From the NCBI RefSeq assembly GCF_051903065.1, contig NZ_CP178438.1: a DNA stretch of 64,000 nucleotides, one strand, 5' to 3'. Made by a program: the position numbers. The DNA is from Escherichia coli. Lineage in GTDB: Bacteria > Pseudomonadota > Gammaproteobacteria > Enterobacterales > Enterobacteriaceae. Positions 48,001 to 51,000 of this stretch are shown piece by piece. Position 1 is the stretch's first letter, and the number at the start of each line of letters is the position of its first letter.

Positions 48001-51000
48001 CAACTTCCCTCATCTTCAGGGCAAGACCGCCCAACTGATGAGGTTGACCGCATATTATCACCAGGAAAGCTGATCATACTCGGTCTGCAACACGTCCTTG
48101 TCATGTACGCAGGTGCAGTCGCTGTTCCTCTTATGATTGGTGACCGACTGGGCCTCTCAAAAGAAGCTATTGCGATGCTCATTAGCTCGGATCTCTTTTG
48201 CTGCGGGATCGTCACATTATTGCAATGTATCGGTATCGGCCGCTTTATGGGGATCCGCCTGCCGGTGATTATGTCGGTGACCTTTGCTGCTGTAACACCA
48301 ATGATAGCCATTGGGATGAACCCGGATATCGGCCTGCTGGGGATATTTGGTGCCACTATCGCCGCGGGTTTTATCACCACATTATTAGCGCCACTTATCG
48401 GTCGCTTGATGCCTTTATTCCCGCCACTGGTTACCGGTGTGGTTATTACTTCTATCGGACTTAGCATCATTCAGGTGGGTATTGACTGGGCCGCAGGAGG
48501 TAAAGGGAATCCGCAATATGGTAATCCCGTTTATTTAGGTATCTCCTTTGCCGTCTTAATTTTCATCTTGCTCATTACTCGCTATGCGAAAGGATTTATG
48601 TCCAACGTCGCCGTATTACTGGGGATTGTATTTGGCTTTTTACTTTCGTGGATGATGAATGAAGTCAATTTATCCGGGCTACATGATGCCTCGTGGTTTG
48701 CGATTGTTACGCCGATGTCGTTTGGTATGCCGATTTTTGATCCCGTTTCCATTCTGACCATGACTGCCGTGTTAATCATCGTGTTTATCGAGTCGATGGG
48801 GATGTTCCTGGCACTGGGTGAAATAGTCGGTCGTAAACTCTCTTCACACGATATTATTCGCGGGCTGCGTGTCGATGGCGTAGGGACAATGATAGGCGGA
48901 ACGTTTAACAGCTTTCCCCACACGTCATTTTCTCAAAACGTTGGCCTGGTTAGCGTGACGCGCGTTCATAGCCGCTGGGTGTGTATTTCTTCGGGAATTA
49001 TATTAATCCTGTTTGGCATGGTGCCAAAAATGGCGGTGCTGGTCGCCTCCATTCCGCAATTTGTGCTGGGCGGTGCTGGGCTGGTGATGTTCGGCATGGT
49101 ACTGGCGACAGGGATTCGAATTCTGTCGCGCTGTAACTACACCACCAATCGTTACAACCTCTATATTGTGGCGATCAGTCTCGGCGTTGGCATGACTCCG
49201 ACGCTCTCTCACGATTTCTTTTCTAAGTTACCGGCCGTACTGCAACCGTTGCTGCATAGCGGCATTATGCTCGCAACCCTTAGCGCCGTTGTGCTGAACG
49301 TCTTCTTTAATGGCTATCAGCATCATGCTGATCTGGTGAAGGAATCCGTCTCTGATAAAGATTTAAAAGTCAGGACAGTACGTATGTGGCTTCTGATGCG
49401 CAAGCTGAAGAAAAATGAGCATGGAGAATAATATGAATCTTTTAATGCGCGCTATATTCAGTCTGTTGTTGCTTTTTACTCTCTCTATTCCTGTCATTTC
49501 TGACTGTGTTGCAATGGCCATTGAAAGTCGCTTCAAATATATGATGCTGCTTTTTTAAATGGTTTTTACCTGTCGACATCCGCTCAAAACGGGCGGTTGT
49601 CGATAAACGCTCACTTGGTTAATCATTTCACTCTTCAATTATCTATAATGATGAGTGATTAGAATTACATGTGAGAAATTATGCAAACGGAACACGTCAT
49701 TTTATTGAATGCACAGGGAGTTCCCACGGGTACGCTGGAAAAGTATGCCGCACACACGGCAGACACCCTCTTACATCTCGCGTTCTCCAGTTGGCTGTTT
49801 AATGCCAAGGGGCAATTATTAGTTACCCGCCGCGCACTGAGCAAAAAAGCATGGCCTGGCGTGTGGACTAACTCGGTTTGTGGGCACCCACAACAGGGAG
49901 AAAGCAACGAAGACGCAGTGATCCGCCGTTGCCGTTATGAGCTTGGCGTGGAAATTACGCCTCCTGAATCTATCTATCCTGACTTTCGCTATCGCGCCAC
50001 CGATCCGAATGGCATTGTGGAAAATGAAGTGTGTCCGGTATTTGCCGCACGCACCACCAGTGCGTTACAGATCAACGATGATGAAGTGATGGATTATCAA
50101 TGGTGTGATTTAGCAGATGTATTACGCGGTATTGATGCCACGCCGTGGGCGTTCAGTCCGTGGATGGTGATGCAGGCAGCCAATAGTGAAGCAAGAAAAT
50201 TGTTGTCTGCTTTCGCGCAGCACAATTAAAAAACCCCGACATTTGCCGGGGTTGTGAGCATAACGTAATGCTTATTTTACCGGACGCATCGCCGGGAACA
50301 GAATAACGTCGCGGATGGTATGGCTGTTGGTGAACAGCATTACCATACGGTCGATACCAATTCCCAGACCTGCTGTCGGCGGTAAGCCGTGTTCCAGTGC
50401 GGTGACATAATCTTCGTCGTAGAACATCGCTTCGTCGTCGCCTGCGTCTTTCGCGGCAACCTGATCCAGGAAGCGCTGCGCCTGATCTTCCGCGTCATTC
50501 AGCTCGCTAAAGCCGTTACCGATTTCACGACCACCAATGAAGAACTCAAAGCGGTCTGTGATTTCCGGGTTAACGTCGTTACGACGCGCTAGCGGAGAAA
50601 CTTCTGCCGGATATTCAGTAATGAAGGTCGGCTGAATCAGATGTGCTTCTGCCACTTCTTCGAAGATCTCGGTAACGATACGGCCCAGACCCCAGCTCTT
50701 TTCAACGTGGATGCCGATAGATTCAGCAATCGCTTTCGCAGAGTCGAAGTTATCCAGATCCGCCATGTCGGTTTCCGGGCGATATTTCTTGATCGCTTCA
50801 CGCATGGTCAGTTTTTCGAACGGTTTACCGAAGTCCAGCGTTACGTCGCCGTAGGTCACTTCCGTCTTACCGAGAATATCCTGTGCCAGAGTACGGAACA
50901 GCGATTCGGTCAGCTCGATCAGATCTTTGTAATCTGCGTAAGCCATATAGAGTTCCATCATGGTGAACTCTGGGTTATGACGTACGGAAATACCTTCGTT

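What the first reader, a model, noticed from the sequence alone, without database searches (positions are those of the whole stretch)
49423..49558. 41-codon small membrane protein gene whose ribosome-binding site is embedded in the uacT stop region
GGAG at 49423-49426 lies within the last codons of uacT, and the ATG at 49433 follows the uacT TAA by one nucleotide, suggesting translational coupling of a small hydrophobic protein (likely yqfG) to the urate transporter.
Basis: partly seen in the sequence, partly recalled or inferred. Interest (0 to 1): 0.3.

Follow-up and report, generated by a model that had tools for sequence, protein, structure and literature searches.

The report
Known small membrane gene yqfG
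This is yqfG, an already catalogued 41-residue E. coli membrane protein gene that starts one base after the urate transporter gene uacT; it is real and conserved, and always sits behind that type of transporter, but it is not a new discovery.

Summary
GGAG is at 49423-49426, the uacT TAA at 49429-49431, then one base, then the ATG at 49433. A 41-codon ORF follows and ends at 49558.

It is yqfG (K-12 b4684), annotated in RefSeq and present in 5384 of 5426 complete E. coli genomes. Published work shows that the intramembrane protease RseP cleaves YqfG in vivo and in vitro.

An ORF with a ribosome-binding site is not significant on its own: eight such ORFs occur in this window. The evidence for a real gene is evolutionary. 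dN/dS is 0.03-0.46 and the reading frame is intact in every relative examined.

Profile searches extend the family to 38-41 residue "hypothetical" proteins in Citrobacter, Kluyvera, Klebsiella and Enterobacter. In every locus fetched whose 5' flank could be read, the gene lies directly after a urate-cluster NCS2 permease. The stop-to-start distance is -1 to +4 nt in 12 of the 14 measurable loci, while both flanking genes vary.

This supports translational coupling and a transporter-linked role, but neither was tested. An AlphaFold fusion model gave no support for docking onto UacT.

Verdict: already known, ordinary, low interest.

The parts
47983..49431 (+). uacT (ygfU), the urate:H+ symporter gene and upstream partner of the pair; its last codons carry the yqfG ribosome-binding site
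   Evidence: RefSeq annotation transferred from the 100% identical strain 118UI and K-12 b2888; ORF listing.
49423..49426 (+). Shine-Dalgarno core GGAG for yqfG, inside uacT codons Gly-Glu
   Evidence: Sequence read. Best anti-SD duplex is -6.4 kcal/mol with the paired stretch ending 5 nt before the ATG. An SD-like element occupies the same place in all 15 related loci, ranging from -2.8 to -10.8 kcal/mol.
49429..49431 (+). uacT stop codon TAA, 1 nt before the yqfG ATG
   Evidence: The 1-nt gap is kept in Escherichia, Citrobacter and L086. It is a 1-nt overlap in Klebsiella and Enterobacter and +4 nt in L096.
49433..49558 (+). yqfG coding sequence, 41 codons plus TAA; differs from the K-12 product by F3L
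   Evidence: Translation; annotation WP_001050745.1 'protein YqfG'; K-12 b4684; purifying selection.
49451..49519 (+). Codons 7-29, the predicted transmembrane segment AIFSLLLLFTLSIPVISDCVAMA, with the invariant Pro20
   Evidence: TMHMM segment taken from the supplement of PMC10470546; hydropathy; AlphaFold2 model with helix 3-17, a break at 18 and helix 19-40; P20 invariant in 22 family members.
49526..49555 (+). Codons 32-41, the conserved C-terminal tail: Ser32 (over 90% conserved) followed by the invariant Arg33-Phe34, with a hydrophobic or aromatic end
   Evidence: Family alignment A2: R33 and F34 invariant, S32 over 90% conserved.
49571..49605 (+). Strong hairpin 13 nt after the yqfG stop, with no U-tract. 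Probably the 3'-end structure of the uacT-yqfG transcript. Its 3' arm contains the -35 hexamer TTGTCG of the idi promoter.
   Evidence: RNA fold of 49553-49630 gives -26.7 kcal/mol, z = -5.45. It is kept, with different but still complementary arms, in Escherichia and Citrobacter. The idi promoter TTGTCG-18-AATCAT is from PMC3946193.

Best explanation
The feature is yqfG (b4684), a known gene for a 41-residue single-pass inner-membrane protein and the distal gene of a uacT-yqfG pair.

Shown: the ORF, its SD inside the last uacT codons, and the 1-nt stop-start gap. The ORF is under purifying selection. Its homologues (38-41 aa) sit immediately after a urate-cluster NCS2 permease in Escherichia, Citrobacter, Kluyvera, Klebsiella and Enterobacter. 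From the literature, YqfG fused to cytoplasmic tags is integrated in the membrane and is cut within its TM by the S2P protease RseP.

Inferred, about 0.65: ribosomes that terminate at the uacT stop re-initiate at the adjacent yqfG AUG (termination-reinitiation coupling), helped by the embedded SD. YqfG would then be made only when and where UacT is made, on ribosomes already at the membrane.

Inferred, about 0.4: the peptide inserts N-in/C-out next to the permease and acts as a small accessory or regulatory partner of it, with RseP setting its lifetime.
For: Identity: the region is 100% identical to E. coli 118UI and annotated uacT | yqfG | yqfH | idi; K-12 b4684.

Coding: E. coli versus E. 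albertii shows 7-9 synonymous against 1-2 non-synonymous changes (dN/dS 0.03-0.05; my binomial on 1 of 8 gives p about 2e-4). Escherichia versus Citrobacter gives dN/dS of about 0.2-0.4. Variable sites by codon position are 23/10/34.

Family: profile searches find 38-41 aa relatives with invariant P20 and R33-F34, and R6 and S32 conserved in over 90% of members, named from Klebsiella, Enterobacter and Citrobacter.

Linkage: every fetched locus whose 5' flank could be read has the gene directly after a Xan_ur_permease. This holds where the upstream neighbour is not ygfT (C. amalonaticus L082). It holds where the downstream neighbour is idi, AraC-type regulators (L086) or an fdhF-like gene (L093, L096, L098). 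It also holds where the permease is only 42% identical to UacT.

Coupling geometry: the gap is -1, +1 or +4 nt in 12 of the 14 measurable loci, and an SD-like element is kept although the permease's last residues differ (HGE, QDE, HEE, QEG). The SD is weak (GGTG, -2.8 kcal/mol) in E. albertii and a cryptic clade, yet the 1-nt gap is retained.

Membrane nature and RseP cleavage: PMC4597795 and PMC10470546.
Against: No experiment on coupling could be consulted. The start region is not sequestered in RNA structure (z = +1.15) and has its own SD, so independent initiation is possible. In Kluyvera the gene is 66 nt downstream, behind a hairpin, with its own SD.

The gene is dispensable for UacT-type permeases: C. 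freundii, Serratia oryzae and Pluralibacter carry 81-83% identical UacT orthologues without it.

An AlphaFold2 model of a UacT-linker-YqfG fusion gave the YqfG part lower confidence (47-72) than YqfG alone (70-95 over the same residues), so it gives no support for docking.

No paper in the searchable library links YqfG to urate transport. Membrane orientation is predicted only.
Confidence: 0.75

Rival explanations
1. yqfG is a real gene but is translated independently from its own SD. The 1-nt gap would then only reflect compact operon packing, and the peptide's function would be unrelated to UacT.
For: The start region is unstructured (z = +1.15). A GGAG sits at good spacing. Kluyvera homologues have a 66-nt spacer with a hairpin and their own SD. 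UacT orthologues exist without the small gene.
Against: The -1 to +4 nt spacing is kept across genera while the sequence around it changes. The weak SD (-2.8 kcal/mol) in E. albertii and a cryptic clade keeps the same spacing. Adjacency to the permease survives changes of both flanks and of the permease lineage.
Confidence: 0.3
2. YqfG is a signal-peptide-like precursor. Signal peptidase would cut after residues 27-29 (AMA) and release a 12-residue periplasmic peptide (IESRFKYMMLLF), with RseP clearing the remnant.
For: The layout has a basic N-end, a hydrophobic core and a small-x-small motif at 27-29 (AMA, ALG, AQG, AFG, ALA) in many members. The RseP authors chose YqfG because it resembles signal peptides. 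The conserved S-R-F tail lies after this site.
Against: The motif is poor in several members (NLG, NLS, ELS at positions -3 to -1). P20 lies 9 residues before the site, which is long for a signal-peptide c-region. TMHMM places residues 7-29 as a TM helix. There is no lipobox: the sequence is VISDC with Asp at -1, and Cys25 is replaced by G, S or A in other genera. No cleavage evidence exists.
Confidence: 0.1
3. Only the act of translating the ORF matters, for example by keeping ribosomes on the 3' end of the uacT mRNA up to the hairpin or by shielding it from Rho. The peptide itself would be inert.
For: A strong conserved hairpin lies 13 nt after the stop. The peptide is rapidly degraded by RseP.
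Against: There is strong purifying selection on the amino-acid sequence, with invariant P20 and R33-F34 across genera that are saturated at synonymous sites.
Confidence: 0.07
4. The ORF is a chance open frame after uacT and is not a gene.
For: ORFs of this size with an SD-like core are not rare: 8 occur in this window.
Against: RefSeq and K-12 annotate it, dN/dS is well below 1, homologues occur in five genera, and there is published protein work.
Confidence: 0.01

Closest known systems
YqfG of E. coli K-12 (b4684, YP_002791254.1)
   Same: Same locus between uacT and idi, same length, 40 of 41 residues identical. It is listed among the small membrane proteins credited to Hemm et al. 2008 and is a Class I RseP substrate (PMC4597795, PMC10470546).
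   Different: Only F3L. This window's allele equals WP_001050745.1 of strain 118UI.
Small single-TM partners of transporters and membrane complexes (KdpF-KdpABC, AcrZ-AcrB, CydX-CydAB, MgtS-MgtA; from general knowledge)
   Same: Under 50 residues, one TM helix, and encoded with (KdpF, CydX) or co-regulated with (AcrZ, MgtS) the large membrane protein they bind. YqfG is co-conserved with its permease.
   Different: No physical or functional interaction of YqfG with UacT has been shown. The AlphaFold fusion test was negative or inconclusive. There is no sequence similarity to any of these proteins, and no Pfam or NCBIfam model matches YqfG.
Termination-reinitiation gene pairs in bacteria (Huber et al. 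2019, Nat Commun, PMC6728339; seen only as a reference, not read)
   Same: The stop and start lie within a few nucleotides or overlap (UAAUAUG here, UAAUG in Klebsiella), with the SD inside the upstream gene.
   Different: Dependence of yqfG translation on uacT translation has not been measured.
Remnant signal peptides and other small membrane protein substrates of RseP (YkgR, HokB, Blr, YshB)
   Same: Type II orientation, a tiny periplasmic part, and a helix-destabilising residue in the TM (Pro20). [quoted passage not shown]
   Different: YqfG is the product of its own conserved gene, tied to one transporter locus. It is neither a by-product of secretion nor a toxin.

Membership tests
YqfG (E. 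coli b4684) | Near-identical sequence to K-12 YqfG | tested here: met
   40 of 41 residues identical to the K-12 translation, with F3L; 100% identical to WP_001050745.1 'protein YqfG'.
YqfG (E. coli b4684) | Position directly after uacT and before idi on the same strand | tested here: met
   Annotation of the identical region and of K-12.
YqfG (E. coli b4684) | Protein actually synthesised from the chromosomal gene (epitope tag, ribosome profiling) | not testable with these tools
   Hemm et al. 2008/2010 and the EcoSal review are not held in the library. No supplement with profiling data was available.
Single-pass small inner-membrane proteins, type II (N-in/C-out) | One hydrophobic segment long enough to span the membrane | tested here: met
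   GRAVY 1.44; 11-residue hydropathy windows reach 2.0-2.7 across residues 3-23; TMHMM places the TM at 7-29 in the PMC10470546 supplement; helical AlphaFold2 model.
Single-pass small inner-membrane proteins, type II (N-in/C-out) | Experimentally determined orientation | not testable with these tools
   The supplement of PMC10470546 lists the orientation as predicted only. RseP cleavage of N-terminally MBP-tagged YqfG is consistent with N-in.
Translationally coupled (termination-reinitiation) gene pair | Stop of the upstream gene and start of the downstream gene within a few nucleotides, with the SD inside the upstream gene | tested here: met
   The gap is 1 nt and GGAG lies in the last uacT codons. 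The same geometry occurs in 12 of 14 measurable related loci.
Translationally coupled (termination-reinitiation) gene pair | Downstream translation depends on upstream translation | not testable with these tools
   This needs reporter or immunoblot experiments with uacT nonsense or start mutants.
Small-protein accessory subunits of transporters (KdpF/AcrZ type) | Co-conservation and co-location with the transporter gene | tested here: met
   The gene is always directly after a urate-cluster Xan_ur_permease, while both flanks and the permease lineage vary. It is absent from some orthologous loci.
Small-protein accessory subunits of transporters (KdpF/AcrZ type) | Physical binding to the transporter | tested here: inconclusive
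   In the AlphaFold2 fusion model (12 paired rows) the YqfG part has pLDDT 47-72, lower than YqfG alone. No coordinates or PAE were available.
Small-protein accessory subunits of transporters (KdpF/AcrZ type) | Effect on transporter activity or stability | not testable with these tools
   No published data were found.
Bacterial lipoprotein / Sec signal peptide | Lipobox [LVI][ASTVI][GAS]C | tested here: not met
   The sequence is V-I-S-D-C with Asp at -1, and Cys25 is G, S or A in Citrobacter, Kluyvera and Klebsiella.
Bacterial lipoprotein / Sec signal peptide | Conserved signal peptidase I site (small-x-small) | tested here: inconclusive
   AMA, ALG, AQG, AFG or ALA occurs at 27-29 in many members, but NLG, NLS or ELS in others. 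No predictor or cleavage data were available.

The most novel reading that the evidence does not exclude
YqfG-family peptides (38-41 aa, with P20 and an S-R-F tail) could be dedicated single-helix partners of the urate-cluster NCS2 permeases of Enterobacteriaceae. They would be delivered beside the permease by termination-reinitiation and removed by RseP, so that their synthesis and proteolysis tune urate uptake or permease stability. The family is wider than annotated: Klebsiella, Enterobacter, Kluyvera and Citrobacter members are all labelled 'hypothetical'. It may work together with the equally conserved permease C-terminal tail RTVRMWLL(M/L)RK.
Probability: 0.35. Interest if true: 0.5.

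Novelty: already known. Interest (0 to 1): 0.2.

Why it matters
As found, it matters little. The gene is annotated in E. coli K-12 and RefSeq and has been used for a decade as a model substrate of the RseP intramembrane protease.

The useful residue of this check is that YqfG still has no known function, and here it turns out to belong to a wider and largely unnamed family. Across five genera, that family is locked to the 3' end of urate-cluster permease genes.

This gives a concrete, testable hypothesis for an orphan small protein: it may be a partner of UacT. It is relevant to the anaerobic urate-degradation cluster of gut Enterobacteriaceae, which has recently attracted interest for host purine homeostasis.

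Tried and rejected
- **Primary papers.** Hemm et al. 2008 (PMC2614699), the PMC ids I tried for Hemm 2010 and for Weaver 2019, the EcoSal 2020 review (PMC7212919) and Papakostas & Frillingos 2012 (PMC3346081) are not held. No supplement was held for the ribosome-profiling preprint or the Mg-starvation small-protein paper. Direct expression and start-site evidence therefore could not be read.
- **Domain libraries.** Pfam and NCBIfam give nothing, apart from one chance ComGG hit at E = 0.2.
- **Rfam.** A scan of 49000-50000 gave only one sub-threshold chance hit (20 bits against a gathering score of 100).
- **Promoter and terminator scan.** No plus-strand promoter appears near yqfG and no canonical terminator after it. 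The scan also missed the published idi promoter, so it is insensitive.
- **RNA fold of the start region.** There is no sequestering structure, so coupling by unmasking of the SD is rejected.
- **AlphaFold2 fusion of UacT-(G4S)4-YqfG with a paired alignment.** No confident placement of YqfG was obtained. This is inconclusive, not evidence of absence.
- **Lipoprotein reading.** Rejected, because there is no lipobox and the Cys is not conserved.
- **Longer protein from the upstream ATGs at 49415 or 49421.** Rejected, because the extension is not conserved.
- **Wasted search.** One literature search with broad terms returned only irrelevant papers.
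Full report
**1. Observation**

The sequence is as described. The end of uacT reads ...aat gag cat GGA Gaa TAA t ATG. GGAG is at 49423-49426, TAA at 49429-49431, one spacer base at 49432, and ATG at 49433. The ORF 49433-49558 encodes MNLLMRAIFSLLLLFTLSIPVISDCVAMAIESRFKYMMLLF followed by TAA.

The best predicted pairing with the 16S 3' end is -6.4 kcal/mol, with the paired stretch ending 5 nt before the ATG.

Such an ORF is not remarkable on sequence alone. The window holds 340 ATG ORFs of 30-60 codons, and 8 have an SD-like core at the right distance, against 22 +/- 4 in shuffles. The case for a gene must come from elsewhere.

**2. Identity**

- The 401 bases around the feature are 100% identical to E. 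coli strain 118UI and match 5384 of 5426 complete E. coli genomes.
- RefSeq annotates uacT | yqfG (WP_001050745.1) | yqfH (minus strand) | idi | lysS.
- In K-12 the gene is b4684, 3032817-3032942, 'uncharacterized protein YqfG'.
- The window allele differs from K-12 by F3L.

**3. What is published**

- YqfG is treated as one of the small membrane proteins credited to Hemm et al. 2008. I know that paper only from citation and memory; it is not held in the library.
- Akiyama et al. (eLife 2015, PMC4597795) describe it as predicted type II (N-in/C-out). [quoted passage not shown]
- Yokoyama et al. (mBio 2023, PMC10470546) class YqfG as a Class I substrate. It is cleaved with plasmid-borne and chromosomal RseP, with two different tags, and in vitro.
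- Their supplement gives the N-terminal part as MNFLMR, the TM as residues 7-29 and the tail as IESRFKYMMLLF, with the orientation 'predicted' only.
- No paper in the library connects YqfG with urate or UacT.

**4. Is the ORF under selection?**

I retrieved the DNA after uacT orthologues and the contigs encoding homologues. The ORF is intact in E. albertii, a cryptic Escherichia clade and four Citrobacter lineages, and in one unplaced metagenomic lineage.

| Comparison | Result (Nei-Gojobori) |
|---|---|
| E. coli vs E. albertii | 7-9 synonymous, 1-2 non-synonymous changes; dN/dS 0.03-0.05 |
| Escherichia vs Citrobacter | dS about 0.8-1.4, dN about 0.3; dN/dS about 0.2-0.4 |
| Variable columns by codon position | 23 / 10 / 34 |

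With about 96 non-synonymous and 27 synonymous sites, seeing 1 non-synonymous change out of 8 has a binomial p of about 2e-4 (my arithmetic). This is a protein-coding pattern.

**5. A wider family**

- A word-indexed search with the single sequence found only Escherichia and Shigella.
- A profile built from the Escherichia, Citrobacter and Kluyvera sequences found more.
- A full HMMER pass over 1.84 billion representatives gave 28 hits at E <= 1e-3. These include 38-41 residue proteins whose clusters are named from Klebsiella michiganensis, K. oxytoca and K. pasteurii, from Enterobacter, and from Citrobacter. All are labelled 'hypothetical'.
- The 22-member alignment has invariant P20, R33 and F34, and over 90% conservation of R6, L14 and S32. 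The C-terminus is hydrophobic or aromatic: LLF, LFF or FYF.
- No Pfam or NCBIfam model covers the family.

**6. Linkage to the permease**

Every homologue whose 5' flank could be read lies directly after a Xan_ur_permease gene of 482-490 residues. The short contig L095 does not reach the upstream gene. The neighbours on both sides vary:

| Side | Neighbour | Loci |
|---|---|---|
| Upstream | divergent ygfT | most loci |
| Upstream | a second permease | C. amalonaticus L082 |
| Downstream | idi | Escherichia, Citrobacter |
| Downstream | AraC-type regulators | L086 |
| Downstream | fdhF-like molybdoenzyme, 715-718 aa | L093, L096, L098 |

In L093, L096 and L098 the permease is only 41-43% identical to UacT, yet UacT is still its best E. 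coli match; XanQ scores 25-28%.

The small gene is not universal. An HMM scan of all 80 UacT-related loci from the genome collection finds it only in E. coli, E. albertii, Citrobacter sp. R56 and Kluyvera. It is absent after the 81-83% identical UacT orthologues of C. freundii, Serratia oryzae and Pluralibacter, and absent in Morganella, Hafnia, Edwardsiella, Aeromonas and Burkholderiales.

**7. Coupling geometry**

| Gap between permease stop and small-gene start | Loci |
|---|---|
| +1 nt | nine Escherichia, Citrobacter and L086 loci |
| -1 nt (UAAUG overlap) | Klebsiella L093, Enterobacter L098 |
| +4 nt | L096 |
| +66 nt, with a hairpin and its own SD | two Kluyvera loci |

- The gap could not be measured in L095, whose contig starts 52 nt before the gene.
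- A purine-rich SD-like element always lies in the last permease codons, although those codons encode different residues (HGE, QDE, HEE, QEG).
- In E. albertii and the cryptic clade the SD is weak (GGTG, -2.8 kcal/mol), but the 1-nt gap is kept.
- The E. coli start region is less structured than shuffled controls (z = +1.15). If coupling operates, it works through re-initiation by terminating ribosomes, not through unmasking of a buried SD.

All of this is consistent with translational coupling and supports it. None of it demonstrates it.

**8. Mechanism**

The best-supported account is as follows. yqfG is the distal cistron of uacT-yqfG and is translated largely by ribosomes that have just finished UacT, so it is made at the membrane. 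The product is a kinked single TM helix. The AlphaFold2 model has helix 3-17, a break at residue 18 before P20, and helix 19-40; pLDDT is 85.6 overall and falls towards the C-terminus. Its tail is short and conserved, and RseP degrades it.

Its persistent position behind urate-cluster permeases makes a partner or regulator role for the permease the most likely function. This is by analogy with KdpF, CydX, AcrZ and MgtS, which I cite from general knowledge.

I tried to test docking with an AlphaFold2 model of UacT-(G4S)4-YqfG, using 12 paired and 36 unpaired rows.

- The UacT body folded well (block pLDDT 80-93).
- The YqfG part scored 57/72/61/47, lower than YqfG alone.
- The UacT tail helix scored 55-59.

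This gives no support for docking. The test is weak: the paired alignment is shallow, only a monomer was modelled, and no PAE or coordinates were returned.

**9. Rivals**

- Independent initiation with no functional tie to UacT: about 0.3.
- A signal-peptide-like precursor that releases IESRFKYMMLLF: about 0.1. The small-x-small motif at 27-29 is only partly conserved, and there is no lipobox.
- Translation matters but the peptide does not: about 0.07, contradicted by dN/dS.
- A chance ORF: refuted.

**10. Verdict**

The feature is an already known gene. The modest additions from this check are a wider family, strict linkage to urate-cluster permeases, and conserved coupling geometry. Interest is low.

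Noticed in passing
window 49571-49605 (+): A strong hairpin lies 13 nt after the yqfG stop (fold of 49553-49630: -26.7 kcal/mol, z = -5.45) with no U-tract on either strand. It is kept in E. coli, E. albertii, a cryptic clade and four Citrobacter lineages, with different but still complementary arms. Its 3' arm carries the -35 hexamer (TTGTCG, 49597-49602) of the published constitutive idi promoter.
   Followed up: partly
window 49555-49626 (-): The annotated and tag-detected small protein YqfH (23 aa, MINQVSVYRQPPVLSGCRQVKTI) overlaps the yqfG stop and the hairpin. It is not conserved as a peptide: it is frame-shifted in E. coli L081, cut to 17 aa in Escherichia sp. E2593, different and longer in E. 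albertii, and absent in Citrobacter. Its sequence seems to be dictated by the hairpin.
   Followed up: partly
window 49372-49407 (+), UacT residues about 464-475: The UacT C-terminal cytoplasmic tail motif RT(V/M)RM(W/F)LL(M/L)RK(L/V) is virtually unchanged between permeases that are only 42% identical overall. Many synonymous differences show that the selection is on the protein. It is also present in UacT orthologues that lack yqfG (C. freundii, Serratia oryzae, Pluralibacter), and absent in Morganella, Hafnia, Edwardsiella, Aeromonas and Burkholderiales. Its function is unknown.
   Followed up: partly
L093 3138-5285; L096 3144-5300; L098 3145-3564; L004 5501-7645: In Klebsiella, Enterobacter and a related lineage, the permease-yqfG pair is followed 17-27 nt later by an fdhF-like molybdopterin oxidoreductase (715-718 aa). 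This fits the formate-dependent urate pathway. Serratia oryzae has UacT plus this enzyme but no small ORF in the 54-nt spacer.
   Followed up: partly
window 49551-49559 (+): The yqfG stop sits in a T6A3 run (cTTTTTTAAA). Some E. coli database entries have 56-62 residue read-through variants, such as P0001 and P0005. Others carry in-frame duplications inside the TM (P0018, P0024). This suggests slippage-prone ends that are tolerated in the population, or assembly errors.
   Followed up: no
E. coli genome NZ_AP042478.1 (hit H12): In a few of the 5426 E. coli genomes only the idi end of the query matches, and a 2Fe-2S protein gene is annotated next to idi. The uacT-yqfG segment is therefore missing or replaced in a small minority of strains.
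   Followed up: no
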